From Moorella sp. UBA4076 (GTDB lineage Bacteria > Bacillota > DSM-521 > Neomoorellales > Neomoorellaceae): 35,019 nucleotides of DNA. Shown here piece by piece: positions 10,299 to 34,374 of the stretch. The stretch spans positions 20,525 to 55,543 of the forward strand of contig DFYS01000099.1 of assembly GCA_002383405.1 (NCBI GenBank), read 5' to 3'. The notes under the pieces are model-generated. The model was not told the DNA's origin and did no database searches. It saw only the letters and a list, made by a program, of their open reading frames with translations. Each line of letters starts with the position of its first letter. Positions within the stretch are counted from its first letter, which is position 1. The position numbers and the translations under genes are program-made.

Positions 10299-10400
10299 TG
10301 CCCAGCACTCAATTATAGGCGGCTCACTCCTTATGGGGCATGCACTTTTTTGATGGTTTCCATTCTCAAAGCTGCCGTATTGCAGGTTGAGTGCTGGGCA
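10299..10400. repeat. MITE-like 102-bp element with perfect 14-bp terminal inverted repeats
   Basis: TGCCCAGCACTCAA (10299-10312) and TTGAGTGCTGGGCA (10387-10400) are exact reverse complements. A partial second copy starts at 11240. Confidence 0.7.
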
Positions 10401-11205: not shown

Positions 11206-11207
11206 AT

Positions 11208-11580
11208 AGATGTGAGAAGTGAGAGGTGGGATGTGGGAGGCCCAGCACTCAATCCTGGCTTATTAAAACTGCTGATATAATCCTGAACATGATGGTTTCT
11301 ATCCCAACCCGGCATAGCCTTAAACCAAAATCCTGCCGCGATATTTTCTTCCTGCTCGCATCAAATTATGGCCGTAACAAATTTCGTACACCCGTCCGTG
11401 CCATTAATGCTTGACACGATGGCAGGCGGGGTTTAAACTTGCTTTATCGGAGAAGCACCTCATGGCGGCACGCCGTCACAACGAACGCCGGAAATAGGAG
11501 GTAGCAGGGTTTAATTAGAAACTGGCGTAGCCAGTTTCAACAAGCTTTCCACCTCCCACTGCTCACTTCCCGCATCTCAT
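11208..11580. repeat. Heptamer-bracketed intergenic element, copy A (comEA-uppP)
   Basis: Left array AGATGTG AGAAGTG AGAGGTG GGATGTG GGAGG (11208-11240). Right, complementary array CACCTCC CACTGCT CACTTCC CGCATCT CAT (11550-11580). Perfect 9-bp hairpin GAAACTGGC-gta-GCCAGTTTC (11518-11538). Homologous to 34135-34357. Confidence 0.8.
11411..11439 (+). promoter_or_regulatory. Sigma-A promoter for uppP
   Basis: TTGACA (11411-11416), 17-nt spacer, TAAACT (11434-11439). Confidence 0.65.
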
Positions 11581-11600
11581 TACGGAGGGAAACAGTAGAA

Positions 11601-12386
11601 ATGGATATTCTACAGGCCGTCATCCTGGGTCTGGTCCAGGGCGTGGGTGAGTTTTTGCCCATCTCCAGTTCCGCCCACCTGGTTTTGACACCCTGGCTTT
11701 TCGGCTGGCCCGACCAGGGTCTGTCCTTTGATGTCGCCCTGCACCTGGGCACCCTGGTCGCGGTGGTGGCCTATTTCTGGCGCGATATTATCGAAGTGGT
11801 AATCTGCGGCCTCTTTCAGCCCCGCAGCCTGGACGGCCGCCTCTTCTGGTACCTTGTCGTCGCTTCCATTCCGGGGGCTGTTTTTGGTTATCTCCTGGAA
11901 AACCAGGCGGAAACGGTTTTCCGCTCACCCCTGCTGATAGCTTTAACCCTGACCCTGATGGGTATCGGCCTCTGGCTGGCCGACCGCAAGGGCGGCAAAA
12001 CCCGGGATATAGAGGATATCACTTTGATGGATAGTATTATCGTTGGTATTTCCCAGGCCCTGGCCATTATTCCCGGCGTCTCCCGTTCCGGCATTACCAT
12101 GTCTGCCGGTCTTTTAACCGGCATGAAGCGGGAGACGGCGGCCCGCTTTTCTTTCCTTATGTCAGTGCCCATCATCGCCGGCGCCGCCCTTTTAAAAGTA
12201 CCGGATTTGCAACCGGCTGATTTTAACCTGGCCTTTATTCTGGGGGTGCTGACAGCAGCCGTCGTTGGTTTCCTGGCTATCAGGTTTTTGCTCCAGTACC
12301 TACGCCACGGCAGCTACCTCCTGTTTACCTGGTACCGCATCCTGCTGGCGGCCCTGGTGGTAGCAGTTTTCTTCCTGCGCCGGTAA
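11601..12386 (+). CDS. uppP: Undecaprenyl-diphosphate phosphatase (BacA family)
   Basis: GLVQGVGEFLPISSSAH and QALAIIPGVSRSGIT motifs, AARFSFLMSVP. GGAGG RBS. Confidence 0.97.
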   Translation: MDILQAVILGLVQGVGEFLPISSSAHLVLTPWLFGWPDQGLSFDVALHLGTLVAVVAYFWRDIIEVVICGLFQPRSLDGRLFWYLVVASIPGAVFGYLLENQAETVFRSPLLIALTLTLMGIGLWLADRKGGKTRDIEDITLMDSIIVGISQALAIIPGVSRSGITMSAGLLTGMKRETAARFSFLMSVPIIAGAALLKVPDLQPADFNLAFILGVLTAAVVGFLAIRFLLQYLRHGSYLLFTWYRILLAALVVAVFFLRR

Positions 12387-12507
12387 ATTGGTTATATATC
12401 AACCAGCATAACAACCTGACCGGAGGCAGAAGTGACGGCTGGCGGCGATTCTTTTTATAACAAAAGCGCGATAGAACAAAGACGTTTTAAACGTATGAGG
12501 GCAAGGC

Positions 12508-12550
12508 AGCCCCCGGGTGTAAAAGTTGCATTCGGGGGCTTATGTTTGGT
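12508..12550 (+). terminator. Probable terminator hairpin after uppP
   Basis: 15-bp stem AGCCCCCGGGTGTAA-aag-TTGCATTCGGGGGCT (three G-U pairs on the + strand), followed by U-rich TATGTTTGGT. Confidence 0.55.
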
Positions 12551-12625
12551 TATTAACGGATAGTTTTCCGGTAATCTGGCCATAATAACTGATGCCAGAA
12601 TGATCGGCGTTTAATTTTTGCTGAT

Positions 12626-12653
12626 ACAGGAAATGCGGGGATTCCTGGCGAAT
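12626..12653 (+). promoter_or_regulatory. Putative sigma-H promoter of the sigma-54 activator gene
   Basis: ACAGGAAAT-N12-GGCGAAT matches RNAGGAWWW-N11/12-RNNGAAT, about 45 nt before the start codon. Confidence 0.6.
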
Positions 12654-12699
12654 AATCAAATATATACATCGGATCTCCAAAATGCGGGAGGGAGAGGTC

Positions 12700-14631
12700 A
12701 TGGCGGTCAAAGTGGTGGTAGTCAGCTGGGGTCAATTAACGAACGTGGTCCGGGAGGTGCAGCCCCAGCTTAGTGGGGAAGCTCACATCGAGCTGGTGGA
12801 AGGTTTATTTGACCAGCAGACAACCCTGGAGATGACCCGCCAGATTGAGGCCAGTGAGCAGGTAGATGTCTTTGTCAGCGGTGGTGGTAATGCCTGCATG
12901 CTCAGGGATAATTTGCAGACTCCGGTAGTAGCCATCACCGTCTCCGGTTACGATATGCTGAAAACAATCCTCCAATGCCGCACCGGTAATGAAACAGTGT
13001 ACTTTGTCCATTTTAGTGAAATTATTCATGAGCTCAATGACTTAAAGGCGGTTCTCCCCTTTCCGGTCAATCAAGTCGCCCTGAAGACTACGGCTGAAGG
13101 CGAGGCTCTTTTTAATGAACTCAGCCGTCAGGAACAACCGGTGGTGATTGTGGGCGCCAGCCTGGCCTGTGATTTGGCTCGGCGTCACGGTTTGCAGGCG
13201 GTTTATGTTTATACGCCCAAAGCCGTCCTTGAAGCCCTGGAGCGGGCGGTGGAGCTGGCCAGGGTGCGGCGCCAGGAAATGGAAAAAACCCAGCGCATCC
13301 AGGCTATTCTTGATTTTGCCTGCGACGGGATTATTGCCTGCGACCAGCAGGGGATCATTACCGCCTTCAACCCGGCCGCTGAGATGATCACCGGCATTAG
13401 CTCCCAGGGGGCCACTGGTCGTCCAGTGGATGAGATCGTGCCGGCTTTAAAGCTGGAAACGTTGCTTACTAGTGACCAAGGGCAGTTTAACCAACTGGAA
13501 AAGATCAAAGATAAAGAGGTAATGGTTAATAAAGTGCCGGTAATCGTCCGGGGGGAGCCCCGGGGTGCGGTGGCTACTTTGCATGACATCGTCACCATCC
13601 AGAAAGCCGAGCACCAGATTCGTCTCAAGTCCCGCCGGGAGGGACTTGAAGCCAAGACGACCTTTATGGAGATTGTAGGGGAATCCCAGGCCATGCAGCA
13701 AACAATTACCCAGGCCAGACAATACGCCCGTTCTGAAGCCACGGTCCTTATAATGGGCGAAACCGGCACCGGCAAAGAGCTTTTTGCCCAGGCGATCCAC
13801 AATGCCAGCCAGCGACAGGGCCGGCCCTTTGTGGCCATCAACTGCGCCGCTGTACCGGAGAACCTGCTGGAAAGCGAGCTTTTTGGTTATGAAGAGGGCG
13901 CTTTCACCGGAGCCAGGAAGAGCGGCAAACCGGGACTCTTTGAACTGGCCCACGGGGGGACAATATTCCTGGATGAGATTGGCGACATCTCCCAGGCAAT
14001 TCAGATTAAATTACTACGGGTTCTCCAACAAAGGGAAATTATGAGAGTTGGCGGCCAGCATACCATACCCATTGATGTCCGCGTCATCGCCGCCACCAAC
14101 CGTGATTTACTGGCAGCTGTCCGGGAGGGAACCTTCCGCGCTGATTTGTATTATCGTCTGAACGTTTTACCGTTACATTTGCCGCCTTTAAGGGAACGCA
14201 AAGAAGATATCCCGTTCCTGCTCGGGGACATGCTTTTTAAAGCCAACCGCGCTCTGGCCCGTTATGCTCCGGTAATTGCCCGGAAAATCTTCAACTATTT
14301 ACCTGCCTACTCGTGGCCCGGCAACGTGAGGGAATTACAAAATATCGCGGAAAGAATTATGGCCCTGGCTACGGGTAGTATTAGCGAGAATCAGATTAAA
14401 GAAATTATAGATATAGTTATAAAGCAGGGTTCTTATGAAGAACCTGTCAGGATTAAAACTCGAGATTTAGGTTCCCGGAAGGGCGATCTCAAAAAAGAAA
14501 TTATTGATCTGGAAAAAGAGGTGATCCTGGAGGCTCTCCGGCAGACCCGGGGCAATAAAACCCGCGCGGCACAACTTTTAGGGATCAGTCGTTCTACTCT
14601 GTGGCGAAAAATAAAAGAAGACGTGTCTTAG
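12700..14631 (+). CDS. Sigma-54-dependent transcriptional activator (PrpR-N-like + PAS + AAA+ + Fis-type HTH), likely regulator of the nicotinate cluster
   Basis: N-terminal [11 protein letters not shown]...[13 protein letters not shown] resembles PrpR-N. PAS region [20 protein letters not shown]. Walker [38 protein letters not shown], and C-terminal [21 protein letters not shown]. Start moved to ATG 12700 (GGAGG at 12687-12691). Confidence 0.93.
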
Positions 14632-14641
14632 CGTAGCTTAT

Positions 14642-14678
14642 TGTATCATTTGCGCAACAGATGTTTTATTACAAGACG
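14642..14678. promoter_or_regulatory. Candidate upstream activator sequence(s) for the sigma-54 activator
   Basis: TGT-N12-ACA at 14642-14659 and a similar TGT-N11-ACG at 14662-14678, about 80-115 nt upstream of the predicted sigma-54 start. This is a typical enhancer position. Confidence 0.4.
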
Positions 14679-14730
14679 GTTATTAAACAATTACAAGTTT
14701 CAAACCTTAATATTTCTATGCTTTGTTTTA

Positions 14731-14746
14731 TGGCATGTCTTTTGCA
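14731..14746 (+). promoter_or_regulatory. Sigma-54 (SigL) -24/-12 promoter
   Basis: TGGCATGTCTTTTGCA fits TGGCACG-N4-TTGCW with exact GG-N10-GC spacing and lies directly downstream of a sigma-54 activator gene. Predicted +1 near 14757. Confidence 0.88.
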
Positions 14747-14981
14747 TGTATTAAAATGTTGAGGAGATAAAACTTAAATTGCAGAGAGAGGGGGATTGCG
14801 GTATTGCCGATACCAGAAACGGCCTGCGCTGAAAAGTCTTTTTAATACCCAGGTTGTTGGCTTGTTGGAATTTATTCCGACGGTGCCAGCTATGTACAAG
14901 TGGGCTCCAGGATTTTTAATCTCTCCGTTATATCTGAGATCCCGATGGAACTTTTTTTAACAGAAGGGAGGAAAAACGTAA

Positions 14982-15221
14982 ATGGAAACCAGTCCGAAGA
15001 CAAACGGACCAGCGCCGGCTCCCAAAGACAACTTGAGTACTGCCAGGCGGAGATGGACCTGGGTATTCGTAGTTCTTGTTTTACTAGCATACGTGGTGCC
15101 GTTCACAGTACTGTCCGGCGTCCATAAGATTTACGGGGCGTTCCTGTTCTGGACCCTGTTTGCCGTTGTGTCCATCGCCTGTATGATTGTGATTACCGGG
15201 AATTGGAGGGATTTAAGTTGA
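14982..15221 (+). CDS. Small two-TM partner protein of the solute:sodium symporter
   Basis: 79 aa, strong GGGAGG RBS, two TM segments (AYVVPFT...YGAFLFW). Its stop overlaps the symporter start, as in small-protein/SSS gene pairs. Confidence 0.8.
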   Translation: METSPKTNGPAPAPKDNLSTARRRWTWVFVVLVLLAYVVPFTVLSGVHKIYGAFLFWTLFAVVSIACMIVITGNWRDLS

Positions 15222-16699
15222 GCGCAACTCTTGTTTATGCCGCCATGTTTATCTATATTATCATTGCTACGGTTTTTGCCTTCATGTCCAAGAGAGGCAT
15301 GGGCAGGGGGATGACCGAATATTTCCTGGGCAACCGGGCCATGGGCGGTTTTGTATCTGCCCTGACCTACAGCGCTACCACCTACAGCGCCTTTATGATG
15401 ATAGGCTTGGCGGGTCTTACTTATACCGGCGGAGTTGGCGCCCTGGGTTATGAGCTACTTTATCTTTGCGGCCTGGTTCTGGCTGTTTATTTTGGTCCCA
15501 GGTTCTGGCTGGCAGGGAAAAAATACGATTATGTAAGTCCGACCGAACTTCTCGGGCACCGTTACGACAGCAAGGGAGTAGCTATATTAACCGCCCTGGC
15601 CTGCTGCATCTTCCTTATTCCATACAGTGCCGTCCAATTGATGGGGATAGGCTATCTGATGGAAGGCCTGTCCGGGGGAACTATTACTTTTATGACGGGA
15701 TTGATTATCGCCGTCCTGGTAGCTGTCTTTTGGGCCTTAATTGCGGGTCTCAGGTCGGTAGCCTGGACTGATGCCCTGCAGGCGTTATTGATGATAGTCG
15801 TTGCCATTGCGGTATTGCTGGTTGTGGTATACAAAGGGCTGGGTGGTTTTGGCGGGCTGTTTGCAGCTTTGGAAGCAGACGCCCCATCTCTGCTGGCGGT
15901 TACCCCTAAAGAAGGATATTTCAAGTTTAGCACCTTCCTGGGATTGAGCCTGCCCTGGTTCTTCTTCTGTATATCTAATCCCCAGGTGAGCCAGCGCCTT
16001 TATACGCCCAGGACCCTCAAAGACATGCGTGTCATGTTAATTGGATTCCTTATTTTCGGCCTGGTTTATACTCTGGTTTCAGTTTTGTGGGGCTTTTCCG
16101 CCAGGATGCTGATCCCGGGCTTATCCAAAGCCGACCTGGCAACCCCGTCCCTGCTGGCCTTACCTATAGTTCCCATGCTGCTAGCCCTGCTTGCCATGGT
16201 GGGTATTACGGCGGCAGCTATTTCTACGATTGACTCCATTTTCTTGACCCTGTCTTCGATGGTAGCGCGGGATATCTATAAAAACCTGGTTCCCAATGCC
16301 TCGGATGACTCTCAGCTGTTAGTTAGCAAGATCTTTATCCCCATCATTGCCATCGCTGCGTTCCTGTTTGCCCGCTTACAGCTGGGGTTGATTGCGGTTC
16401 TGTCGACCGCTGCATCTGCCGGTTTATTGGTGATGGTACCGGCGATCTTCGGCGCTTTCTTCTGGAAGAAGGGAACTTCCGCAGGGGTAATTGCCAGCAC
16501 CCTGATCGCGGGCGGCCTCAGCTTTTACCTGCAGTTCAGCGGTTTGCGTCCGCTGGGTTGGTGGCCCGGTATCTGGGCTATCATTGTCTCGATCATCCTG
16601 TTTGTGGGGGTCAGCCTGGTCACCCAACCGAATACTCAAAGAGCGGAAGAATTTATGGGTTACGTAAATAACAACTTAAAGCTGCATAACGCCATTTAA
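15218..16699 (+). CDS. Sodium:solute symporter (SSS, PanF/PutP-like), candidate nicotinate importer
   Basis: EYFLGNRAMG, ATTYSAF, GLRSVAWTDALQA and AAAISTIDS SSS motifs, with many TM segments. Start moved to TTG 15218 (GGAGG at 15205-15209, TTGA overlap). Substrate is inferred from context only. Confidence 0.88.
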   Translation: MSATLVYAAMFIYIIIATVFAFMSKRGMGRGMTEYFLGNRAMGGFVSALTYSATTYSAFMMIGLAGLTYTGGVGALGYELLYLCGLVLAVYFGPRFWLAGKKYDYVSPTELLGHRYDSKGVAILTALACCIFLIPYSAVQLMGIGYLMEGLSGGTITFMTGLIIAVLVAVFWALIAGLRSVAWTDALQALLMIVVAIAVLLVVVYKGLGGFGGLFAALEADAPSLLAVTPKEGYFKFSTFLGLSLPWFFFCISNPQVSQRLYTPRTLKDMRVMLIGFLIFGLVYTLVSVLWGFSARMLIPGLSKADLATPSLLALPIVPMLLALLAMVGITAAAISTIDSIFLTLSSMVARDIYKNLVPNASDDSQLLVSKIFIPIIAIAAFLFARLQLGLIAVLSTAASAGLLVMVPAIFGAFFWKKGTSAGVIASTLIAGGLSFYLQFSGLRPLGWWPGIWAIIVSIILFVGVSLVTQPNTQRAEEFMGYVNNNLKLHNAI

Positions 16700-16821
16700 A
16701 ATAAAGAGTGAATCATATTGCCTTATAAAAAAGGCGCCTAAAGAGGATAAAAACACTATTATCAAGAGGCACATGACCCAAGGCATGGGGAGATAAGGTC
16801 CTGAAGGAACTGGTTTAAATG

Positions 16822-16858
16822 ATGGGCGCGGGAAGCTCAGGTGGGCGCCCGCGCCTAT
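16822..16858 (+). other. Strong intercistronic hairpin without U-tail before ndhF
   Basis: ATGGGCGCGGG (16822-16832) pairs with CCCGCGCCTAT (16848-16858), with an inner GCTCA/TGGGC stem. Confidence 0.5.
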
Positions 16859-16885
16859 AAAACCTATAAAAAGGACGAGATAAAG

Positions 16886-17761
16886 GTGCTCAAGCTACAG
16901 GAATTTTGCCAACCGGTAGAGTTAAAGAAGGCCCTGGACCTACTGGCAGTTGCCGGAGACCAATTAAAGCCCCTGGCCGGCGGGACAGATCTTATACCTG
17001 CTGCTCGCCAGGGCGAATTGAAAATTAAGGGGTTCCTGGATCTTTCCCGGTTAGAGGAATTAAAGGGGATAAAGGAAGAGGGCCGGGAAATACACCTTGG
17101 CAGCCTGACCACCTTTAGCCAGCTGGAATTATCTCCATTAATCAAGGACCAGGTCCCTCTGCTGGCGGAAGCAGCGTCTACAGTCGGCTCGCCGCAGATA
17201 AGAAACCAGGGAACTATTGGCGGGAATATCGCCAATGCTTCGCCGGCAGCCGATACGGTAACAGCCCTGGTAGCCCTGGAAGCGCAGGCCAGGCTGGTTT
17301 CCAGCCAGGGAATAAGGGTGGTACCTGTCGATGAATTGCTGTGTGGCATGGGAGAGACCGGTATTCAACCCCAGGAAATTATCCAGGAGGTATTCTTTGC
17401 CATCCCGCCGCCGGAAAACAGAAACGGTTTTGTCAAACTGGGACGGCGTAAAGCCCTGGCTATCGCCAGGATGAATATGGCTGTGATTATTACCCTGGAG
17501 GACGGCGTCATAACCCGAGCCAGGGTAGCCCTGGGGGCCGTAGGCCCCAATCCCTACCGCAATCAGATCCTAGAAGGAGTGCTGGAAGGTCGGAAACCCT
17601 CACCCTCTTTACTTGAGGAGTTTACCAGCGAAGCGGAACAGGAAGTAGCGGCAAAGCTGGGTCCGCGGCCTTCCGCGCCCTATAAACGGGAAGCAATCAA
17701 AGGAATAGCGCGCGATTTATTATCCAGGTTGTTTTTTGGCAATGGTCAGGTGGTGGCATAA
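16886..17761 (+). CDS. ndhF: Nicotinate dehydrogenase FAD subunit (xanthine dehydrogenase family)
   Basis: PLAGGTDL, VGSPQIRNQGTIGGNIANASPAAD and KLGRRKALAIAR. Start moved to GTG 16886 behind AAGGA (291 aa). Assignment supported by cluster context. Confidence 0.85.
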   Translation: MLKLQEFCQPVELKKALDLLAVAGDQLKPLAGGTDLIPAARQGELKIKGFLDLSRLEELKGIKEEGREIHLGSLTTFSQLELSPLIKDQVPLLAEAASTVGSPQIRNQGTIGGNIANASPAADTVTALVALEAQARLVSSQGIRVVPVDELLCGMGETGIQPQEIIQEVFFAIPPPENRNGFVKLGRRKALAIARMNMAVIITLEDGVITRARVALGAVGPNPYRNQILEGVLEGRKPSPSLLEEFTSEAEQEVAAKLGPRPSAPYKREAIKGIARDLLSRLFFGNGQVVA

Positions 17762-18256
17762 ATGGCAGCTTTTCATCTGGAAATGAAGGTTAACGGTGAA
17801 CTGGTGGCAGTAGATATCGATCCAGGGATGCGTTTGCTGGACGTTTTACGTGAGGTTTTACACCTTACGGGAACAAAAGAAGGATGCGGCGAGGGCGAGT
17901 GCGGCGCCTGTTCCGTAATCCTTGATGGCGAATTGGTGGATTCCTGCCTGGTAATGGCGCCCCAGGCCTATGGTAAAGAAGTAGTCACTATCGAGGGCGT
18001 TGCCGCTCTGGGGCAACTCCATCCCTTGCAGGAGGCTTTTATAGAGGCCGGCGCTGTCCAGTGCGGTTTTTGTACCCCGGGGATGATTCTGGCGGCCAAA
18101 GTTCTCCTGGATCACAACCCCAACCCTGATCGTCAGGAAATAGCCCGGGCGATTTCCGGCAACCTTTGCCGTTGCACCGGCTATAGCAAGATTATAAAGG
18201 CTGTGGAGATAGCAGCATCTAGAATAAAAGCGGAAGCAGGTGCTGCCAGTGATTGA
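17762..18256 (+). CDS. ndhS: Nicotinate dehydrogenase 2x[2Fe-2S] subunit
   Basis: GTKEGCGEGECGAC...SCL and QCGFCTPG...NLCRCTGY. Confidence 0.88.
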   Translation: MAAFHLEMKVNGELVAVDIDPGMRLLDVLREVLHLTGTKEGCGEGECGACSVILDGELVDSCLVMAPQAYGKEVVTIEGVAALGQLHPLQEAFIEAGAVQCGFCTPGMILAAKVLLDHNPNPDRQEIARAISGNLCRCTGYSKIIKAVEIAASRIKAEAGAASD

Positions 18257-21684: not shown

Positions 21685-21760
21685 GATCTCTACGTCGCTA
21701 GACAACATTAATACCGGTGAAAACCTAGAAGCTATTCATTAGTGTAACCAGGAGGCCTGG

Positions 21761-23272: not shown

Positions 23273-24108
23273 TGTTCCAAATGCTGGACCCCTTTCGCGC
23301 CCTGCTGGATATCGGCCCGGTGCAGATGAGCATTATGGCTGAACGCCGGGGGCAGCCTCTGGGACGGGAATGGCACCGGCTGGAAGGGCTGGTAACAGGA
23401 TGGCTGGAGGATTTAAAACGCTACCTGCCTCTCGCCCGGAAGCCGTGGCCTTTGCTTGCCAATCCGGAGGGCTGGCCGCGGGTCCTGGACCGGATGTATG
23501 CTGCCGTTAAAACTGCAGGAGATCCGAGTCTTACCCCCATGGCAGCCGTCGCCGGTACCATGGCGGAACTGGTGGGCGATTACCTGGTAAAACAGGGGGC
23601 AACCAAAGTCCTGGTCAATAACGGCGGCGATATTGCTCTCCGCCTCGGCCGGGGCGAGAAGACCCGGGTCGGCATCGCCCCCCGCCTGGGGGCGCCGCCC
23701 TCCCACTACCTGGACATCAGGGCGGGGGATCATATTGGCGGTATTGCCACCAGCGGCCGGGGCGGGCGCAGCTTTACCGTGGGGATTGCTGACGCAGCCG
23801 TAGCTATTGCTGCTTCGGCGGCGGTCGCCGACGCCTCTGCCACCGTCCTGGGCAATGCGGTGAATGTAGATTCCCCGTTGATCCAGCGCCGGCCGGCGCG
23901 GGAGCTTGACCCGGCTACCGATATCCCGGAACTCCTGGTGACCACGGTCGTCGGTCCCCTGCCGGAAGAATTACAGGTCGCGGCCCTGGAAAGGGGCATA
24001 GCAACAGGGCGGCGATTGGTAGAGGACGGGGCCCTCCTGGGGGCGGTAGTATACCTGAACGGTTTTACGCGCCAGTACCCGGAGGGCCTGGTCCATCCAA
24101 TTAACTGA
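23272..24108 (+). CDS. UPF0280 / ApbE-superfamily protein (putative cytoplasmic flavin transferase)
   Basis: LTPMAAVAG, VLVNNGGDIA, GIATSGRGGRSFTVGIADA and ADASAT..GN. No signal peptide. TAATG overlap with hnr. Confidence 0.82.
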   Translation: MFQMLDPFRALLDIGPVQMSIMAERRGQPLGREWHRLEGLVTGWLEDLKRYLPLARKPWPLLANPEGWPRVLDRMYAAVKTAGDPSLTPMAAVAGTMAELVGDYLVKQGATKVLVNNGGDIALRLGRGEKTRVGIAPRLGAPPSHYLDIRAGDHIGGIATSGRGGRSFTVGIADAAVAIAASAAVADASATVLGNAVNVDSPLIQRRPARELDPATDIPELLVTTVVGPLPEELQVAALERGIATGRRLVEDGALLGAVVYLNGFTRQYPEGLVHPIN

Positions 24109-24154
24109 GGTGCCTTTCATGGGGCTAACGCCTCCGCCAGCGCACAAGGAAAAC
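24109..24154 (+). repeat. Short REP-like intergenic repeat (TCATGG-hairpin-...-GAAAA family)
   Basis: TTCATGGGGCTAACGCCTCCGCC...GGAAAAC resembles modules at 11452-11495, 34219-34263 and, on the minus strand, the flanks of 10281-10409. The match is degenerate. Confidence 0.35.
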
Positions 24155-24348
24155 CTGCCCGGATCGCCGGGTGGGGATATACTTCCACCAGAAGATGCCA
24201 TTTCTGGCAGAAGTCTATTTTTGGAGCATGCCACCTGACATTTTGAGCGGATTATGCAAAGCAGTTTCGTAAAGGGGCGGACATCTGTTACCAGGGACAA
24301 AAACAGATGCCGGCTGTTAAAATTATTTTTCATCAGGAGGTAGTAGAC

Positions 24349-24927: not shown

Positions 24928-24930
24928 TTA

Positions 24931-24965
24931 GTAGCAGGCGGCAGGGCAACCTGCCGCCCCACTAC
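24931..24965 (+). other. GC-rich GNRA-capped hairpin without U-tail after the DUF1185 gene
   Basis: GGCGGCAGG-GCAA-CCTGCCGCC (24937-24958), extended by GTAG/CTAC. Confidence 0.6.
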
Positions 24966-25149
24966 ATTGGCAAGGGATAATCGCCTGTTACCATTACTGT
25001 ACGAAGCCAGCATTGACCGGACGAACTCAGCAATATCAACGATAGCGCCACCATCGTTCAGGCTAAGGACCACCGTTGGGCAGGTAGCTGCCAACAAAGA
25101 TATAAAGATGGGAATTAGAGATTTAGCAGTTTGTGAGGAGGAACGGCGG

Positions 25150-26049: not shown

Positions 26050-27469
26050 AGTTCAGGCCCTGGTAGATTACCTGGCGGGTCGGCCCCAGCCATTTAACCC
26101 CTTAACCCTGGGGGGCCTTTTACACCTGGCGGATCAATATGTTACCAGGGTAAGCGAGATAGTGGTGGCCGAAGCCTGCTTTAACGAACACCTCGCACCG
26201 GAAGAAGTGCTGGCCAGGGTAGAGACCGCCTTTGACCACAACCTGGAAACCGTCCGGCTGGGGATGGACCGGGACAGCCAGAGCTTTCTTATGGGCCGGG
26301 TCGGCTATGAATTAACCCGGCAACCGGGTCAGATTACTAACGATTCTTTTCTCGATCGAGCCATCAGCCTTACCCTGGCGGCCCAGGTGGGCAACCACCT
26401 GGTGGGCCTGGCCCCCTGCGCCGGAACCGGTGACGCCTGTGTTTTCAGCGGCCTGACGGCGGCCATGTTGGAGGCATACCCGCGGGAAGAGGTATGGCCG
26501 GCTGTAGCTGTAATGCTCCGGGTCGGTACTTTTTTCCGAGCCGGCAAGACGACCACAGGTTGTAATATGGAAGGCCTGGGCGCCGGCGCATGCGGCACGG
26601 CGGCCGCGCTGGTGGAACTGGCCGGCGGCGGCCCCCGGGAAATGGACAGGGCCATGGTCCTGGCCCTGTCGCCGACTATCAGCGTGCCCTGTACCCCCAG
26701 GGTAATGGTCCCGGGCTTGTGTGCCACCCATATCGGCGGCGCGCTGATGCTGGGGCAGCTGGCCGCCGGGCTGGCCCTTAAAACCTCGATACCGGTCAAT
26801 GTTCCCGTGGATGTAATGCTGGCCCTGGCTGCCAGGGTCCACCAGGTTTCAGCGCGGACAATTGTACCTGAGGTTATTCGTTACATGGAGGCCTACTTCA
26901 AGAGCGACCCCCGGGTTGATCGCTATATTGAAGAACAGGTTAAAAGTGAAGAAGAACAAAGGCGGGCGGCGGTAGCCGGCCGGGCCCGGGAAGAGGTCGG
27001 CCGGCTGGCCGAGCTGGCCAATCCCGTTATCAAACCCTTTGGCGAGGTAGTAGTGGGCGGCAGCAGCCAGGCCGTAGGTTCACCCACCAATACCGCCCGG
27101 ATCGCCCACGCTCTGGCGGGAGACGCAACGATCCAAAAGGTGCTGATCGAACTCTACCCGGAGCTTTTTGCCCGGCGGGCAATCAATGTGCCCGGTATTC
27201 TTATGGGGGCTGTTTACGGCGCCAGCACGGCCGACAGCCAGAGCTATCACCAGATTCTGAACGAATTGCCCCGGCTGGGTATCACGGTAGAGATTAAAGA
27301 AGCCAATGAACCGCAGCTCCAGCGGGTGACGCTAGAGACCAGCGCGGGCCGGGTTATAGTTGACGCCCGCAATCGTGGCGGCGGTCGCCTGGCTCTGGTA
27401 GAGGCCATCCCTTCCCTGGAGGCAGCCCTGGAAGCAGCGCAAAAGCTGGGCATTGTAATTGTACCTTGA
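26033..27469 (+). CDS. hmd: 2-(hydroxymethyl)glutarate dehydratase ([4Fe-4S], serine dehydratase alpha+beta-like fusion)
   Basis: 478 aa. Alpha-like region with APCAG and C-X42-C-X9-C (GCNMEG...[13 protein letters not shown]), then a beta-like region [19 protein letters not shown]. Lies between hgd and mgm. Confidence 0.82.
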
Positions 27470-27507
27470 AGTGGATATTTAAGAGTGAAAGTATAGGAGC
27501 GAAGACC

Positions 27508-29361
27508 ATGCAGGAAAAGACGCAAGCTATTATCAGGGAAGATATCGACCGGGTGCGGGCCTACGCCCGGCTCTTCGGCGTCACCATGCCGGAAGTGGGA
27601 CCCGACGGCTCGGTTAAGGGGCTACCGGCGCCTTACCCGCGGGAAGTGGCCGGCATGATTCGCGACGGGCATCGCCTGACCGCACTGGCGCGCCAGGCCG
27701 CTCATACCGGTATACCGGTCCAGAACCCCATCCTGGGCCGCAATTCCGGGGCCGAGACCTTGGCGCAATCCCGGGACATGTATGCCATTGCCGATCAACT
27801 GGGCATTAAGCTCTTCCATTTTGTCCATTCTGAAGCTACCCGCCATATCGACCCCCTGGATGGGGCGGAACTGATCGAGCAGTCGCGGGGGAAAGGGGGC
27901 ATAACTCCCAAAGGGGAGCGGGAGTTTGTCCAGATAGGCGGGGGTGCCGTCCACCCCCTGCGCATTAACGCCACCGGCGATACGCCGCACCTATCCATTT
28001 TGAATGCCTTTATAGCCGGCTTTGACGGGACGGACATCGGCCCGGTCATTCACGTTCATTTTGGCGGCCGGGGCATCCACGATTATAAAACCAAAGTCAA
28101 AAATGGCTTTAAGGCGCTGGAAATTTGCGCTGAAAACAATATCTATGTTCAGATAGAGTCCCATAAGCACCTGAACAATATCGGCGGCACCGACGGTGCC
28201 GGGTTAGCCGGTTGCCTTCTGGCTGAAGGACTGGCCGTCCTGGCGGGGTTGCCAGCGGAACTGGGCGCCCTGCAGATGAATGTCGCCGGGATTAACCTCC
28301 TGGCTGATCTGGCCGCTATCCGCGCTTTCCGCCGGGTGATGGGGAGCGAAGCCCTTATCGTCGTGCCGGAGACCTTCCAGAACCCACCTCCGGATTTAAT
28401 CGCTGAGCAGGGGCACTTCGCCCGCATGGCCATGGCGGCCAGGCTTGGCGGCGCCAATTTCTACCGGCCCAAGGCAGCCGAATCCGTTGGCATTCCTACA
28501 GGTGAATCCATGGGCCATGCTATCTGGGCCACCCAGAATATCTTTGAAAACATGGCTTCCATCACCATTAATGACCCGGCCATCGACCGCCGGGAAGAAA
28601 TCATTTTGACCGAAGCCATGGCCGTCCTGGCGGCTACCCTGGGATTAAAATCCCTGCCGGCCCCCGAAGATATAACGGCTGCCTTCTGGCGGCGCTATGA
28701 GCCGGAGGAGTTAATCGAGAAGATTGTGACTGCCGGCAAGCAGGGAATATTGGACGCCCCCCGGGCCGGGGGCTGGGATCTCAAGCGGGCGGTTAAAACC
28801 CACCGCGACCGGGACGGCATTCGCCGTTACGTGCCCGGCTACGGGCCGGCCATGATTGACCCCAGATATCTGGATTTCAGCCAGGAAGAAGTTTCAGTTC
28901 CAGCTCTACCTCCGGTTTCAGAAAAGGCCAGGGTTGTCCTGGCTACAGTAGGAGCTGATGCTCATGTCGTAGGGATTAACCAGATCCGGGAGGCCTTTCA
29001 GCAGGCCGGCTTTGAAGTCATCTACATGCGGGGTATGAATTTACCGGAGACGGTGGCGGAAGTTGTTGCCGAGAGCAAGGCACAGGTAGTCGGCGTGAGC
29101 AACCTCCTGGGCCTGGGGATCACCCTGTTCCCCCGCCTGGATAAACGCTTGAAAGAACTGGGCCTGCGGGATAAAGTACTGGTAATAGCCGGCGGGCGGA
29201 TCGCCGAAAAAGAGGAAGAACACGCCGAACTGGAAGCAAAGATCAAAACTGAAGGACCGGAATTTATCGGGGTGGACGCCTTTTTCGGACCGGGGACCGA
29301 TCCCCAGGAACCGGTAGCCTGGGTCCGGGCCCATTTAAAGGAGGTTATGGGTGATGAGTGA
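27508..29361 (+). CDS. mgm: 2-methyleneglutarate mutase (adenosylcobalamin-dependent)
   Basis: 617 aa from ATG 27508 (AGGAG RBS), starting [49 protein letters not shown], and a C-terminal B12 domain with DxHxxG (GADAHVVG), GVSNL and AGG. Closely follows E. barkeri Mgm as I recall it. Confidence 0.93.
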
Positions 29362-30508
29362 GATGCTGCGCGTGCGCTGTGCCATCTTACGCGGGGGGAC
29401 CAGCAAGGGCATATTTTTACATGAAAATGATTTGCCCTGCGATCGGGTTTTAAGGGACCGGATGATCCTGGCTATTTTCGGCAGTCCTGATGTGCGCCAG
29501 ATTGACGGCCTGGGCGGGGCCGATCCCCTGACCAGCAAGTTGGCCATTATCGGCCCTTCCTCCCGGCCCGACGCCGATGTTGATTATACCTTCGGCCAGG
29601 TAAGCATCAAGGAGCCGTTGATCGACTACTCCGGCAACTGCGGCAATATCTCGGCAGCTGTAGGTCCTTTTGCCATTGACGAGGGTCTGGTTCGCGCTCA
29701 GGAACCGGTAACTGACGTCCGTATTCACAATACCAACACCGGTAAGATTATCGTCGCCGAGGTGCCGGTCCAAAACGGTAAAGCCAGGGTAACGGGGGAT
29801 TATCAAATCGACGGGGTTCCCGGAACGGGTGCGAAAATCATGCTCGACTTTGCCGGGACGGCCGGGGCGGCCACCGGCAGGCTGTTACCGACAGGGCGGC
29901 CGGTCGATGTCCTGGACGTTCCCGGTTACGGCCGTCTGGAGGTCTCTTTGATCGATGCAGCCAACCCCATGGTTTTTGTCCGGGCGGCTGCCCTGGGCCT
30001 TAAAGGGACCGAAGCACCGGCAGAGATTGACAGTAACCCGGGACTTCTGGAGTTGTTAGAGACGATCCGCGCCCTGGGGGCCTGCGCCATGGGCCTGGCT
30101 GCCACCCCGGAGGAAGCCAGCCGGCGCATCCCGGCCTTCCCCATGCTGGCCTTCGTCGCCCCGCCCCAAGATTATCATAGCTTTACCACCCAGAGATTGA
30201 TCAAGGCGGAAGAGGTCGACTTTGTTTCCCGGTTGATGTATATGCAAGTAATGCACAAAACCTACGCCGGTACCGGCACTACCTGTACCGGGGCTGCCGC
30301 CGCCATTCCCGGGACTATCGTCAATGAAGTTTCGCATCGTCATAAGGGACTGATCCGCATCGGCCACCCGGCGGGGGTTATTTCCATTGAAGTGGCTGCC
30401 GCCATTCAGGGGAATGAAATAACCCTTACCCGGGCGGCCGTCGGCCGCACGGCGCGGCGGCTGATGGATGGTTATGTTTATGTAGTCGCGGAAAATATGC
30501 AGGCCTAA
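29354..30508 (+). CDS. mii: 3-methylitaconate isomerase (PrpF family)
   Basis: [47 protein letters not shown] and RTARRLMDG. Overlaps the mgm stop. AGGAGG RBS; the start is 29354 or GTG 29351. Confidence 0.88.
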
Positions 30509-30522
30509 AGGGATAAGAAGTT

Positions 30523-31956
30523 ATGGAAATAAAAGCCTTTGATGTCGGCAGCACTTTTACTAAGGTTAATGCTTACCGGCTGGAAGCCGGCCGTTTACAG
30601 TGGCTGGCCCGCGCCCAGGCGCCGACGACGGTTCAGGATATCCGCGTGGGGCTGGAACAGGCGCTGAAAGGCTTACCGGGAGGCCCCGGCTTGCCAGACC
30701 TGGCGGGCCAGCAGGTTTTGGCTTCCAGCAGTGCCGCCGGGGGCCTGCGGATGGTGGCCATCGGCTATATGCCGCGGGTGACGGCCAAGGCTGCCCTGGA
30801 GGTGGCCATGAATGCCGGGGCCAGGGTCCTGGAGGTGTTATCCGAAGAGGATACCCCGGCCTATCGCCGGGAGGTCCTGCTGGAGATCAAGCCGGACATT
30901 GTTCTTCTTACCGGGGGGACCGACGGCGGCGATACTGACGCCCTATGGCAGAATGCCTGCCTCCTGGCGGATTTAAAGCTCCCGGCAGTGGTTATTATTG
31001 CCGGTAACAGCCAGGCCCAGGCCCGGGCGGCCGAGATTTTGGCAGCCGCCGGAGTCAGGCACCGGCGGGTGGCCAACGTTATGCCCACCATCCACGAATT
31101 GCGGGTCCAGCCGGCCAGGGAGGCCATTCACGGGGAGTTTATCCGCCAGATTACCCGAGCGCCGGGATTGCGTTACCTGGAGGGCCTGGTTCCCGGGGGT
31201 GAGGTTATCCCTACACCCGGGGCCGTCCTCATGGGGGCCGAACTTTTAGCCCGCGGCTATTATGAAGAAAAAGGGCTGGGGAGCCTGGTGGTTATTGACC
31301 TGGGCGGGGCGACTACGGATGTCCATTCTGTTATCCCCCAGTTAGAAGGACTTCCCCTGGAAGAGAGGGGCCTCATCTTGACCAATGAAAAACAGGTGGC
31401 CTACCGGACGGTGGAAGGGAACCTGGGCCTGCGGGTCAGTTGCCGGGGGATTGTGGAAACAGTAGGACCGCGCCAGGTTTTACTCCGGGCCAAACTCCCG
31501 GTTACCGAAGAGATGGAGCAGGAACTCCTGGCCTATTGCCAGCGGGTGGAAGGCCAGACGGAGACCCTGGCCGGGAACGAAAAAGAGCGTTGTTTTGACC
31601 GCGGCCTGGCCATAGCAGCCGTAGAAACAGCCTTGAAACGCCATGCCGGGCACTTAAGCCAGGAGTATAACCCGGTGATGGGCATCGCTCCCGGTACGCC
31701 CATGGGTCGGGACCTGCGGCCGGTTAAATATATCATTGCGGTGGGCGGTATTTTTACAGCCCTGCCGGGGGAAGAAGCCAGGGCGATTGTGCGGGAGGCC
31801 TTGGCCAACCGGGGCATTTCCCTTTTACCTCAAGAACCGGAGATCCTCATTGACGGCGACTATTTACTTTATTCCGTGGGCCTTATGGCATCCCGCCACC
31901 CCTATGAAACTCTTAATTTCGCTAAACAGTATTTCGGTTTACTTCCAGATCATTAA
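30523..31956 (+). CDS. GlmL/MutL-type (glutamate mutase L family) accessory ATPase, putative Mgm reactivase
   Basis: DVGSTFTK, SSSAAGGLRM, LLTGGTDGG, PTPGAV, DLGGATTDVHS and RTVEGNLG, the actin-like ATPase motifs of the GlmL family. Confidence 0.85.
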   Translation: MEIKAFDVGSTFTKVNAYRLEAGRLQWLARAQAPTTVQDIRVGLEQALKGLPGGPGLPDLAGQQVLASSSAAGGLRMVAIGYMPRVTAKAALEVAMNAGARVLEVLSEEDTPAYRREVLLEIKPDIVLLTGGTDGGDTDALWQNACLLADLKLPAVVIIAGNSQAQARAAEILAAAGVRHRRVANVMPTIHELRVQPAREAIHGEFIRQITRAPGLRYLEGLVPGGEVIPTPGAVLMGAELLARGYYEEKGLGSLVVIDLGGATTDVHSVIPQLEGLPLEERGLILTNEKQVAYRTVEGNLGLRVSCRGIVETVGPRQVLLRAKLPVTEEMEQELLAYCQRVEGQTETLAGNEKERCFDRGLAIAAVETALKRHAGHLSQEYNPVMGIAPGTPMGRDLRPVKYIIAVGGIFTALPGEEARAIVREALANRGISLLPQEPEILIDGDYLLYSVGLMASRHPYETLNFAKQYFGLLPDH

Positions 31957-31972
31957 GGGAGAGGAAGCAACG

Positions 31973-32851
31973 ATGCGACCTACAACCAAGCTACGGCAGC
32001 TATTAAACCAGAAACAAATTCTAGTAGCACCGGGTGCTCACGATGTACTGGCGGCTAAGATTATTCAACAGGCGGGCTTTGAGGCCGTTTACTTCACCGG
32101 CTACGGCCAGGCAGCCAGCCACCTGGGGCAGCCCGATGTGGGGCTGCTTACCATGACGGAAATGGTAACCAGGCTCAATAATACCGCGGTCGCCGTCGAC
32201 ATTCCGGTTATTGCCGACGCTGATACCGGCTTTGGCAACGCCATTAACACCATGCGCACCGTCCGGGAATACGAGAAAGCCGGGGCGGCGGCCATCCAAC
32301 TGGAGGACCAGGTTTCACCCAAGAAATGCGGTCATATGCTCGACCGCCAGGTAGTCCCTGTGGAAGAAATGGTGAGCAAAATCAAAGCCGCAGTGGCAGC
32401 CAGGCGCGACCCCGACCTGGTAATTATCGCCCGAACGGACGCCCGGACCAGCAGGGGACTGGAAGAAGCCCTCGCCCGGGGGAGGGCCTACGAAGCCGCC
32501 GGTGCCGACGTGCTCTTCATCGAATCGCCGGAAACTGTGGACGAGATGAAGCAGATTTGCTCTTCTTTTAAAGTTCCTGTGTTGGCCAATATGGTAGAAG
32601 GCGGCCGTACTCCCCTCATGAAAGTTAAAGAGCTGGAGGAACTGGGCTACAGGCTGGTTATTTTCCCCACGGCATCGGTTTATACAGCCGCCAAAGCCTT
32701 AATTGATCTCATGGCTAATTTAAAGGCCAGCGGTACTACCAGGTATTTCATGGAACAGATGTTACCTTTTAGCGATTTCAACAAGCTTATCGGCCTGCCG
32801 GAGATTAAAGAACTGGAAAAAAAATACGCCACCAACGGCTGCTGTCATTAA
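31973..32851 (+). CDS. dml: 2,3-dimethylmalate lyase (ICL/PEP mutase family)
   Basis: PVIADADTGFG, LEDQVSPKKCGH, IIARTDA and NMVEGGRTP. Start moved to ATG 31973 (GGGAGAGG RBS), 292 aa. Specificity inferred from context. Confidence 0.85.
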   Translation: MRPTTKLRQLLNQKQILVAPGAHDVLAAKIIQQAGFEAVYFTGYGQAASHLGQPDVGLLTMTEMVTRLNNTAVAVDIPVIADADTGFGNAINTMRTVREYEKAGAAAIQLEDQVSPKKCGHMLDRQVVPVEEMVSKIKAAVAARRDPDLVIIARTDARTSRGLEEALARGRAYEAAGADVLFIESPETVDEMKQICSSFKVPVLANMVEGGRTPLMKVKELEELGYRLVIFPTASVYTAAKALIDLMANLKASGTTRYFMEQMLPFSDFNKLIGLPEIKELEKKYATNGCCH

Positions 32852-32872
32852 TTGTGGAGAGGGATTAAGCAA

Positions 32873-34135
32873 ATGGGCATGACCATTACCGAAAAGATCC
32901 TGGCCGCCCACGCCGGCCTTGAACACGTGGAGCCAGGCCAGCTCATCAACGCCAAGGTAGACCTGGCCCTGGGGAACGACATCACTGCCCCGCTAGCTAT
33001 CCAGGAATTTAAAAAACTGGGCGTCAAGAAGGTCTTTGATCCGGAGCGGGTGGTTCTAGTGCCGGATCACTTCACCCCGGCCAAGGACATCCAGTCCGCC
33101 GAGCAGGCGAAAATATTACGCGAATTCGCCCGCGAGCAGGGGCTCACCAACTACTTCGAAATCGGCCGCATGGGCATCGAACACTGCCTGCTGCCCGAAG
33201 CCGGGCTGGTCGGCCCCGGGGATCTGGTCATCGGCGCCGACTCCCACACCTGTACCTACGGCGCCTTGGGGGCCTTCGCCACGGGGGTGGGCTCCACGGA
33301 CTTAGCCGCCGCCATGGTCACCGGCGAGCTATGGTTCAAAGTACCCGCAACCATCCTTTTTAGATACCACGGCAAGCTCCAGCCCTGGGTCGGCGGCAAG
33401 GACCTCATTATCTACACCATCGGCCAGATCGGCGTCGACGGCGCCCGCTACATGGCCATGGAGTTCACCGGAGAAGCCGTAAGAGAGCTCTCCATGGACG
33501 GCCGCTTCACCATGGCCAACATGGCTATCGAAGCCGGAGGTAAAAACGGCATTTTCGCGGTAGACGAAAAGACGAAGGCTTACATCCAGGGCCGCCTAAA
33601 ACGGGACTACCGCATTTACGCGAGCGACCCGGACGCCAGGTACGCCGAGACAATAGACATCGACGTCGCTAAAATCGAACCCCAGGTAGCCCTGCCGCAC
33701 CTGCCCGAGAACGCTCGGAGTGTTAAAGAAATAGGCGAGATCAAGATCGACCAGGTAGTCATCGGCAGCTGCACCAACGGGCGGCTGGAAGACTTAAGGA
33801 TAGCGGCGCAACTGCTGCGGGGCAAGAAGGTCCACCCGGAGGTACGCTTAATCATCATCCCCGGCACGCAAAAGATCTACGCCGGCGCCCTGGCCGAAGG
33901 GCTCATCACCATCTTTATTGAAGCCGGGGCGGCCGTATCCACGCCCACCTGCGGCCCCTGTTTAGGCGGGCATATGGGTATCCTGGCCAGAGGCGAACGG
34001 GCCGTAGCCACCACCAACCGCAACTTTGTCGGCCGCATGGGCCACCCGGAGAGCGAAGTTTATCTCGCCGGCCCGGCAGTAGCCGCCGCCAGCGCCGTCA
34101 AAGGGCGCATTGCCGCCCCCGAAGAGGCTATTTGA
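32873..34135 (+). CDS. dmdA: 2,3-dimethylmalate dehydratase large subunit (LeuC/HacA-type aconitase family)
   Basis: 420 aa from ATG 32873. [30 protein letters not shown] and [11 protein letters not shown]. Sequence alone cannot separate it from LeuC; dmdA is called from context (no leuA or leuB nearby). Confidence 0.75.
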
Positions 34136-34357
34136 GAGGTGAGAGGTGAGAGATGGGAGGGGGGGACGGGCAAGGGCACAACTGATGCCAATCCCCTATT
34201 CTCTGTCTATTTTGTGAAGAAGCGTCTAGGGGGGCACATGTTCCCCCGGAGAAACATGAAAATGCTGGGGATGAGGATACCGGGGCTTTAATCTGAAACT
34301 GGCGCCGCAAGTTTTGGCAGGCATCCCACCTCCAAATTCCCCTATCTCACATCTCAT
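34135..34357. repeat. Heptamer-bracketed intergenic element, copy B (dmdA-dmdB)
   Basis: Left array AGAGGTG AGAGGTG AGAGATG GGAGGGG (34135-34162). Right array CACCTCC AAATTCC CCTATCT CACATCT CAT (34327-34357). 34287-34357 aligns ungapped to 11510-11580 at 51/71 positions by hand count. Confidence 0.8.
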
Positions 34358-34374
34358 TTTCGGAGGATGATATC

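What the first reader, a model, noticed from the sequence alone, without database searches (positions are those of the whole stretch)
11208..34357. Two copies of a modular intergenic element that may splint a stop codon to the next gene's RBS
Seen: 11208-11580 and 34135-34357, 23 kb apart in unrelated contexts, share one layout. A purine-rich heptamer array (RGADGTG-like) starts at or just after the upstream stop codon. It is followed by a variable interior, a GAAGC..hairpin..GAAAT module, a TTTAAT-nn-GAAACTGGCG-nn-GCnAGTTT module, a complementary pyrimidine heptamer array ending CATCTCAT, and then CGGAGG (the SD) within 2-3 nt. The last 71 nt align ungapped at 51/71. Inference: in RNA the two arrays can form a long-range stem of about 30 bp with G-U pairs that loops out 160-310 nt and brings the upstream stop next to the downstream SD. 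That would let an insertion sit inside an operon (between dmdA and dmdB) without breaking coupling, or act as an RNase III-type processing site. No transposase is present, so this may be an undescribed non-autonomous element or structured RNA family.
Basis: partly seen in the sequence, partly recalled or inferred. Interest (0 to 1): 0.75.

Follow-up and report, generated by a model that had tools for sequence, protein, structure and literature searches.

The report
Heptamer-tailed repeat inserting at ribosome-binding sites
The two spacers share a ~137-base DNA repeat that occurs about a hundred times in this genome and is gained and lost among relatives; it likely spreads by inserting at ribosome-binding sites while supplying a new one, so it is probably a tolerated selfish element and not an RNA splint that couples genes.

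Summary
The sequence description is correct, but these are not two copies of one element. The shared part is a polar ~137-bp unit ('A': hairpin, linker, 9-bp core hairpin, pyrimidine heptamer tail, SD). This genome has 98 core-plus-tail copies and 229 heptamer arrays (0 in shuffles). A same-genus genome has 86 core copies. Sampled copies are bounded by an SD-containing ~12-bp direct repeat, and relatives lack the unit at orthologous sites. The splint model fails its own tests. Both arms share a spacer in only 10 of 169 array-bearing spacers. In copy 1 the conserved uppP promoter lies between the arms. Own arms pair no better than foreign arms (7 of 19). Sense-strand G·U does not exceed A·C, whereas it does in 23S rRNA intervening sequences (27:1). 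At copy 2 the insertion replaced an ATGA overlap and supplies its own stop and SD. The positional rule is already published for Xanthomonas and Nostoc heptamers. New here are the SD-targeting one-armed unit, the strand test, and the same arms and core inside a 23S IVS. No mobilising enzyme was found.

The parts
11206..11240 (-). Five-unit heptamer array right after the comEA stop (11203-11205); read on the minus strand it is the pyrimidine tail of a separate, reverse-oriented module
   Evidence: absent in 11 of 11 relatives with comEA-uppP
11241..11304 (-). Truncated copy of a ~97-bp element with 12-bp terminal inverted repeats (one repeat left, 11241-11252)
   Evidence: nhmmer E 8e-9, model positions 36-102; family listed
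11303..11381 (+). Module M, a second dispersed ~85-bp repeat nested in the previous element (16 copies by pattern)
11411..11439 (+). Ancestral sigma-70-type promoter of uppP (TTGACA-17-TAAACT), lying between the two arms
   Evidence: 10/12 match; a similar -35/-10 pair is present in 11 of 11 relatives
11444..11588 (+). A unit, copy 1: left SD-like repeat 11444-11455, hairpin 1, A-rich linker, core hairpin 11518-11538, heptamer tail 11545-11579, SD 11584-11588; uppP starts at 11601
   Evidence: E 2e-7 and 1e-11
34133..34160 (+). Four-unit purine array whose first three bases are the stop codon of the leuC/dmdA-like gene; it begins a few bases after the ancestral SD of the downstream gene
34161..34222 (+). 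Older spacer shared with G001, ending in an SD-like junction (34208-34222) where the A-type interior begins
   Evidence: alignment A1
34208..34366 (+). A-type unit, copy 2: hairpin 1 variant, linker, core hairpin 34295-34315, heptamer tail 34322-34356, SD 34362-34366; leuD/dmdB-like gene starts at 34375
   Evidence: (E 2e-3 and 5e-10)
10301..10398 (+). Complete 98-bp terminal-inverted-repeat element inside a reverse hairpin-1 module upstream of comEA (same repeat system)
   Evidence: E 6e-17
24097..24235 (+). Hairpin-1 module with the tail of another family member, without a heptamer array
   Evidence: E 6e-3; 3' end read from the printed sequence

Best explanation
The shared sequence is a polar, gene-less ~137-bp dispersed DNA repeat that occurs about a hundred times in this genome and likely spreads by integrating, through an unidentified recombinase, at a ~12-bp SD-like core that it also carries at its 3' end. 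Shown: copy number, polarity, head-to-tail tandems, SD-like direct repeats at both ends, and empty orthologous sites. Inferred: integration at the core regenerates a target and an SD, which would explain the tandems, the sense orientation and why genes tolerate it. Inferred: it is a one-armed derivative of a palindromic arm-core-arm hairpin of the heptamer class that also frames 23S rRNA intervening sequences. Where a purine arm sits at a stop codon, it is either a second module in reverse (copy 1) or the older palindrome inserted just behind the SD of an overlapping gene pair, supplying a new stop (copy 2). The stem such arms can form is likely a by-product of inverted DNA repeats, not a selected RNA splint.
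For: 98 oriented core-plus-tail copies; of the 95 outside called genes and contig ends, 77 are sense to the next gene; 27 of 37 SD-type copies end 12-26 nt before a start. Tandems at 131-140 nt spacing. Core counts vary from 0 to 87 within the genus; 34 G011 copies have median 81% and up to 97% identity. 24 of 34 have a left SD-like repeat against 1% background, and 21 of 34 follow the end of another module. Empty or differently filled orthologous sites at 7 G011 loci, one of them a target at a GTAG-footed hairpin and not at a gene start. 9 of 9 uninterrupted leuC-leuD junctions printed have the SD in the last leuC codons with an ATGA overlap; the insertion begins a few bases behind it. Core stem changes are compensated (pair 2-20: GC 63, AT 22; pair 6-16: TA 50, CG 29 of 98) but strand-neutral (G·U 29, A·C 28). 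The same arms and core occur between two tRNAs in three genomes and inside a 23S IVS.
Against: No enzyme was identified, and no circular form or transposition was observed. The left repeat is no closer to its own right end than to other copies' right ends (6.27 vs 6.30 of 10, rough end-calling), so it is not a classic target duplication. About 40 of 77 sense copies do not end in an SD motif. In G055 the paired stop-arm/SD-arm layout is common (9 of 20 loci picked as single arrays), including ribosomal-protein operon junctions, which is what a functional splint would also give. The arm pair at the leuC-leuD junction is kept in three genomes.
Confidence: 0.62

Rival explanations
1. One reading: the two arms are selected to pair in mRNA and hold the upstream stop next to the downstream SD, preserving translational coupling across the insertion.
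For: Copy 1 read-through RNA is predicted to form about 29 arm pairs with the SD unpaired (0.76-0.99). The layout recurs at operon junctions in G055, G001 and G009. At copy 2 the ancestral state was a coupled ATGA overlap.
Against: Both arms in only 10 of 169 array-bearing spacers and a purine arm upstream in 1 of 34 G011 copies. Promoter between the arms in copy 1. Own arms beat foreign arms in 7 of 19 (G000), 2 of 18 (G055) and 3 of 6 (G059) pairs. G·U vs A·C on the inferred sense strand: 8:10 and 4:15 in the 4+4 confidently oriented pairs, against 27:1 in rRNA IVS arms. The copy 2 stem nearly vanishes at 60 C. Every window copy carries its own GGAGG.
Confidence: 0.1
2. The arms act as an IVS-like RNase III processing or mRNA-stability site on read-through transcripts.
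For: The same arm class frames 23S IVSs in G011 and G181, and RNase III cuts the heptamer-bearing Coxiella IVS stem (PMC4990558, passages).
Against: Intergenic arms are less complementary (21 Watson-Crick of 28 in copy 1; 32 of 37 in the G011 IVS) and lack the sense-strand wobble bias. Most copies are one-armed.
Confidence: 0.1
3. A REP/BIME-type repeat moved by a Y1 HUH enzyme (RAYT or IS200/IS605 TnpA) as single-stranded DNA.
For: One subfamily starts after a GTAG/GCAG-like tetranucleotide (G, A, G in 9 of 10 at three of the four positions), has two hairpins, is polar and forms mosaics and tandems.
Against: No PF01797 match in G011 (one contig, 99% complete, 86 core copies), G002 or G021. 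The single match in this genome is an IS605 TnpA whose ends do not resemble A. RAYT-like genes of G059 are flanked by unrelated repeats and none of 17 flanking loci hit the A models.
Confidence: 0.1
4. A is a shared cis-regulatory leader (REP2-like) that tunes translation by masking the SD or binding a protein.
For: Predicted SD accessibility is lower behind a tail (0.21 vs 0.35, 70 vs 150 sampled genes, p = 5e-5); 147 of 229 arrays contain CCTCC.
Against: Shuffling the tail gives the same value (0.17, p = 0.17), so this is composition and not order. Orthologous genes in relatives lack the unit. Function of downstream genes was not analysed.
Confidence: 0.08

Closest known systems
Intergenic heptameric repeats of Xanthomonas and Nostoc (Rehm et al. 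2015, PMC4692102; abstract and passages read)
   Same: Purine strand on the sense strand near stop codons and on the antisense strand near start codons; inverted pairs; few units per array.
   Different: Different unit without regular G-tracts; here the array is the tail of a conserved ~137-bp unit with two hairpins, an SD-like direct repeat and empty orthologous sites; inverted pairs are a minority in this genome.
ORF-bearing 23S rRNA intervening sequences (Coxiella, PMC4990558; passages read)
   Same: Heptamer arms of the same class frame the IVS in a same-genus genome; in G181 the IVS holds the same arms plus the core hairpin.
   Different: The window copies are between protein genes, carry no PF05635 gene (none in this 85% complete genome) and lack the RNA wobble signature.
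Geobacter metallireducens paired repeat sites, class 3 (five tandem heptanucleotides) (PMC2700814; passages and supplementary legends read, supplements not opened)
   Same: Five-unit pyrimidine-rich heptamer arrays in pairs on opposite strands at variable distance.
   Different: Interpreted there as regulator-binding sites; no SD-bounded unit described in the passages seen.
TAACTGA repeats of Beggiatoaceae (PMC4679880; first part and passages read)
   Same: Polar heptamer arrays just upstream of start codons.
   Different: Those replace the SD in most cases; here the unit brings an SD.
Neisseria REP2 (reviewed in PMC3184786; passages read)
   Same: 120-150 bp, no terminal inverted repeats, two internal stem-loops, RBS, upstream of genes, unknown spread.
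   Different: REP2 includes a promoter and ATG; A has neither by consensus scan and has a heptamer tail and tandems.
GTAG-family REPs, BIMEs and RAYT/TIRYT (PMC3733652; passages read)
   Same: Tetranucleotide-footed hairpin, mosaics of modules.
   Different: No cognate Y1 enzyme found; the words Firmicutes, Clostridia and Moorella do not occur in that paper's main text.

Membership tests
Intergenic heptamer repeat class (Rehm 2015) | Tandem 7-nt units, mainly non-coding | tested here: met
   216 of 229 arrays outside called genes (my own gene caller)
Intergenic heptamer repeat class (Rehm 2015) | Purine strand sense at stops, antisense before starts | tested here: met
   98 arrays within 30 nt of a start, 29 within 30 nt of a stop, of 213 with a neighbour
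Intergenic heptamer repeat class (Rehm 2015) | G-quadruplex-forming G-tracts | not tested
   Many units lack GGG by inspection; no count or experiment made
23S rRNA IVS | Located in the rRNA gene and enclosing a PF05635 ORF | tested here: not met
   Window copies are intergenic; no Rfam hit in the window; no PF05635 in G000
23S rRNA IVS | Arms co-adapted as an RNA stem on the transcribed strand | tested here: not met
23S rRNA IVS | Excision by RNase III | not testable with these tools
   no RNA holder listed
MITE | Terminal inverted repeats at both ends | tested here: not met
   A is polar with direct repeats; only the nested 97-bp element has TIRs
MITE | Target-site duplication | tested here: inconclusive
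   SD-like repeat on both sides in 24 of 34, but own-versus-foreign identity equal
MITE | Cognate transposase sharing the ends | tested here: inconclusive
   IS110 and RT loci and Y1 loci do not carry A ends; DDE families and integrases were not searched
REP/BIME with RAYT | GTAG-like foot plus palindrome, mosaic arrays | tested here: met
   one subfamily, 10 copies; tandems
REP/BIME with RAYT | RAYT gene flanked by the repeat | tested here: not met
   (10 genomes searched)
Neisseria REP2-like leader repeat | About 120-150 bp, two stem-loops, no TIR, RBS | tested here: met
Neisseria REP2-like leader repeat | Internal promoter and ATG | tested here: not met
   no promoter-like site inside either window A unit; start lies outside at variable distance

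The most novel reading that the evidence does not exclude
A is a minimal selfish element of an undescribed mobility type: a gene-less descendant of the heptamer-armed IVS/four-helix-bundle cassette that excises as a ~137-bp circle and integrates by site-specific recombination at Shine-Dalgarno sequences, rebuilding the SD each time. It would make the unexplained bacterial heptamer repeats the footprint of an RBS-targeting mobile system that needs neither a DDE nor a Y1 transposase.
Probability: 0.25. Interest if true: 0.75.

Novelty: new variant of a known kind. Interest (0 to 1): 0.42.

Why it matters
Heptamer arrays at gene boundaries are widespread and unexplained. This case offers a young burst in a closed genome (G011), defined ends, empty sites and a target motif, which make the spread mechanism directly testable. 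The G·U versus A·C strand test separates arms kept as RNA stems (rRNA IVS) from arms that are only inverted DNA, and argues against the mRNA-splint reading for the class. The window copies themselves are old, mosaic and unremarkable.

Tried and rejected
Rfam: no match in the window. First pattern search of relatives was mis-specified and found nothing even in this genome; corrected. No BLAST match in phage or plasmid collections and no exact pattern match in viral contigs; the strict metagenome pattern gave 0, a looser one 10 loci. No RNA holder was listed, which is no evidence either way. Search for a gene enclosed by A left and right halves gave only ordinary neighbouring genes between separate copies (22 candidates listed, proteins not annotated). 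IS110, RT and Y1 loci do not carry A ends. Core hairpin as a relic of the IVS-protein 3' end: a short resemblance in G011, but cores in G055 and G059 differ at those bases; left unproven. attC-like reading of the core rejected on length (recalled criterion). RNAalifold on the mixed 109-copy alignment gave almost no consensus structure (-1.8 kcal/mol). The wobble count was double-counted on both strands and was replaced. Literature searches with no hit; nothing describing this unit in the listings.
Full report
Observation. Flanking genes are comEA and uppP for copy 1, and a LeuC-type and a LeuD/DmdB-family dehydratase pair for copy 2. The dmdAB label is plausible from context but was not tested. 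Rfam has no match in the window. The genome looks like a Moorella relative to me; that name is recalled and comes from no call.

Copy number and anatomy. BLAST and pattern scans of the window's genome (2.0 Mb, 85% complete) show a large family. A unit matrix finds 229 heptamer arrays against 0 in three 1-Mb shuffles. Read as pyrimidine tails, 82 follow the core hairpin, 30 follow a second element with 12-bp terminal inverted repeats, and 117 fall in neither strict class. A looser oriented search gives 98 core-plus-tail copies. The common unit A is about 137 bp: GGAG or GTAG, hairpin 1, an A-rich linker, a 9-bp core hairpin with a 3-nt loop, about five heptamers, and an SD-like end. It forms head-to-tail tandems at 131-140 nt. 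The ~97-bp inverted-repeat element (42 pairs of 90-104 bp) sits inside either hairpin of A, and a third module is nested in it. The system is a mosaic.

Position. With my own gene caller, 216 of 229 arrays are outside genes. 98 end within 30 nt of a start, peaking at 17-21 nt, and 29 lie within 30 nt of a stop. Between co-directional genes 127 of 162 have the pyrimidine strand sense. About 5 co-directional cases would be expected from independence (my arithmetic).

Copy 1 is two insertions. All 11 relatives with comEA-uppP have a 70-253 nt spacer without arrays and keep a TTGACA...TAAACT promoter. That promoter is at 11411-11439, between the arms. Left of it are a reverse tail, half an inverted-repeat element and module M. 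Right of it is a forward A unit. A transcript from that promoter would lack the left arm (inferred).

Copy 2 is layered. In 10 of the 17 close leuC-leuD loci the genes overlap as ATGA; in the 9 that one search printed, the SD is in the last leuC codons. They include the syntenic orthologues in G007 and G010. In this genome, G001 and G009 an arm pair begins a few bases behind that SD, its first unit is the new stop, and a new SD closes it. G009 has no interior, G001 a short one, and this genome has that interior plus the A-type hairpins. G001 and G009 are the leuB-linked paralogue; paralogues within a genome are homogenised. G011, G002 and G008 carry other long inverted repeats at the same junction.

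Distribution and empty sites. Core counts are 87 here, 86 in G011, 38 in G002, 26 in G021, 11, 10 and 9 in three others, and 0 in G006, G007 and G012; 14 of 61 genomes match. A core-plus-arm pattern is in 7 of 401 genomes of the phylum. Of 34 sampled G011 copies (from the first places listed, not all 86), all have the tail, 25 have an SD and an ORF behind, 24 have a left SD-like repeat (background 1%), and 1 has a purine arm within 400 nt. At 7 G011 loci compared with relatives, the unit is missing or replaced in the more distant genomes; G002 shares it at 2 and lacks it at 5. One empty target is the GTAG foot of a hairpin rather than a gene start, so the preference looks like sequence, with SDs as the commonest match (inferred).

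Is the stem selected as RNA? Copy 1 folds into the long stem (z = -3.0); copy 2 does not beat shuffles (z = -0.9). Own arms pair better than foreign arms in 7 of 19 pairs here, 2 of 18 in G055 and 3 of 6 in G059 (the G055 deficit partly reflects mixing orientations). After orienting, the 4 confident pairs per genome give G·U to A·C of 8:10 and 4:15 (all 18 G055 pairs sum to 26:54, strand uncertain in 14). As a control, 59 four-helix-bundle loci were scored (2 of 61 dropped for short flanks). The 10 tagged as rRNA give 27:1 (15:1 over 6 distinct elements). The 40 of 49 others that passed the score give 138:135. The rRNA tag is a simple motif and may miss some, and the strand tested is the cargo gene's. 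The core stem is compensated but also strand-neutral, 29:28. The tail lowers predicted SD access, but shuffled tails do the same. Against my reading: G055 has both arms at 9 of 20 loci chosen as single arrays and at three ribosomal-protein operon junctions. The paired layout is a real element form, though it shows no sign of RNA-level tuning.

Origin. A palindromic arm-core-arm form lies between two tRNAs in G002, G009 and G021. The 23S IVS of same-genus G011 has arms of the same unit family around a PF05635 gene. The 23S IVS of G181 has the same heptamer class and holds an arm-core-arm hairpin ahead of a 5'-truncated PF05635 frame. A is most simply a one-armed derivative of that palindrome with an added hairpin (inferred; direction not shown).

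Enzyme. No Y1 match in G011, G002, G006, G012, G009 or G021. One IS605 TnpA is present here, and the RAYT-like genes of G059 have other flanks. IS110 and RT loci lack A ends. DDE families and integrases were not searched. The integration mechanism is therefore inferred from the direct repeat, tandems and polarity only.

Known context. Rehm et al. 2015 (PMC4692102) report the same stop and start rule and inverted pairs. Paired five-heptamer sites are listed for Geobacter (PMC2700814; supplements unseen and may bear on this), polar upstream heptamers for Beggiatoaceae (PMC4679880), heptamers in the Coxiella IVS (PMC4990558), and Neisseria REP2 is the nearest leader-type repeat (PMC3184786). PMC2996986 passages added only that Geobacter multicopy sequences cluster non-randomly. 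Nine searches found no description of this unit or of SD targeting. Earlier notes of this scan describe the class often (78 hits); they are unchecked and are not counted as support.

Verdict. Real, abundant, mobile-looking and of a known but unexplained kind. The splint reading is unlikely. The SD-bounded unit, the empty sites and the strand test are the new and testable parts.

Noticed in passing
window 10301-10398: Complete 98-bp element with 12-bp terminal inverted repeats and a variable interior; 42 such pairs in the genome, often inside one of the two hairpins of the A unit or inside itself. No transposase linked.
   Followed up: partly
window 11303-11381; G000 contigs listed: Module M, about 85 bp, 16 copies, with CTAA near both ends and subterminal inverted repeats, which recalls IS1111-type ends (recalled, untested).
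   Followed up: partly
L275:1415-1905 (G181): 23S rRNA intervening sequence whose four-helix-bundle gene has lost its 5' part, with an arm-core-arm hairpin in that place; folds at z = -10.6.
   Followed up: yes
L016 and L027 (G011); L023 and L030 (G010): The two leuC-leuD paralogue pairs within a genome are identical or nearly so, including the spacer, which suggests gene conversion.
   Followed up: partly
L261, L264-L271 (G059): About nine RAYT-like Y1 genes flanked by GGGGAC-type inverted repeats, like the TIRtrons of PMC3733652.
   Followed up: no
G000 C14:24094-24225: An IS605 left end and the start of its TnpB frame lie inside a reverse-oriented A unit, interrupted in turn by the 97-bp element.
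   Followed up: partly
L038 (G010) and L042 (G027): Weak PF05635 matches followed by an AAC-rich repeat of upstream sequence, resembling the accessory gene and template repeat of a diversity-generating retroelement (recalled).
   Followed up: no
G000 C60:273-443, C90:4984-5142, C112, C122, C27, C71: 13 of 229 arrays fall inside called genes, some as whole tandem units in long frames.
   Followed up: no
L100-L103, L104-L115 (G011 and relatives): A ~340-bp long-palindrome module with the same SD-like end is common across the genus, also in genomes without the A core, and is the usual left neighbour of A in G011 (21 of 34).
   Followed up: partly
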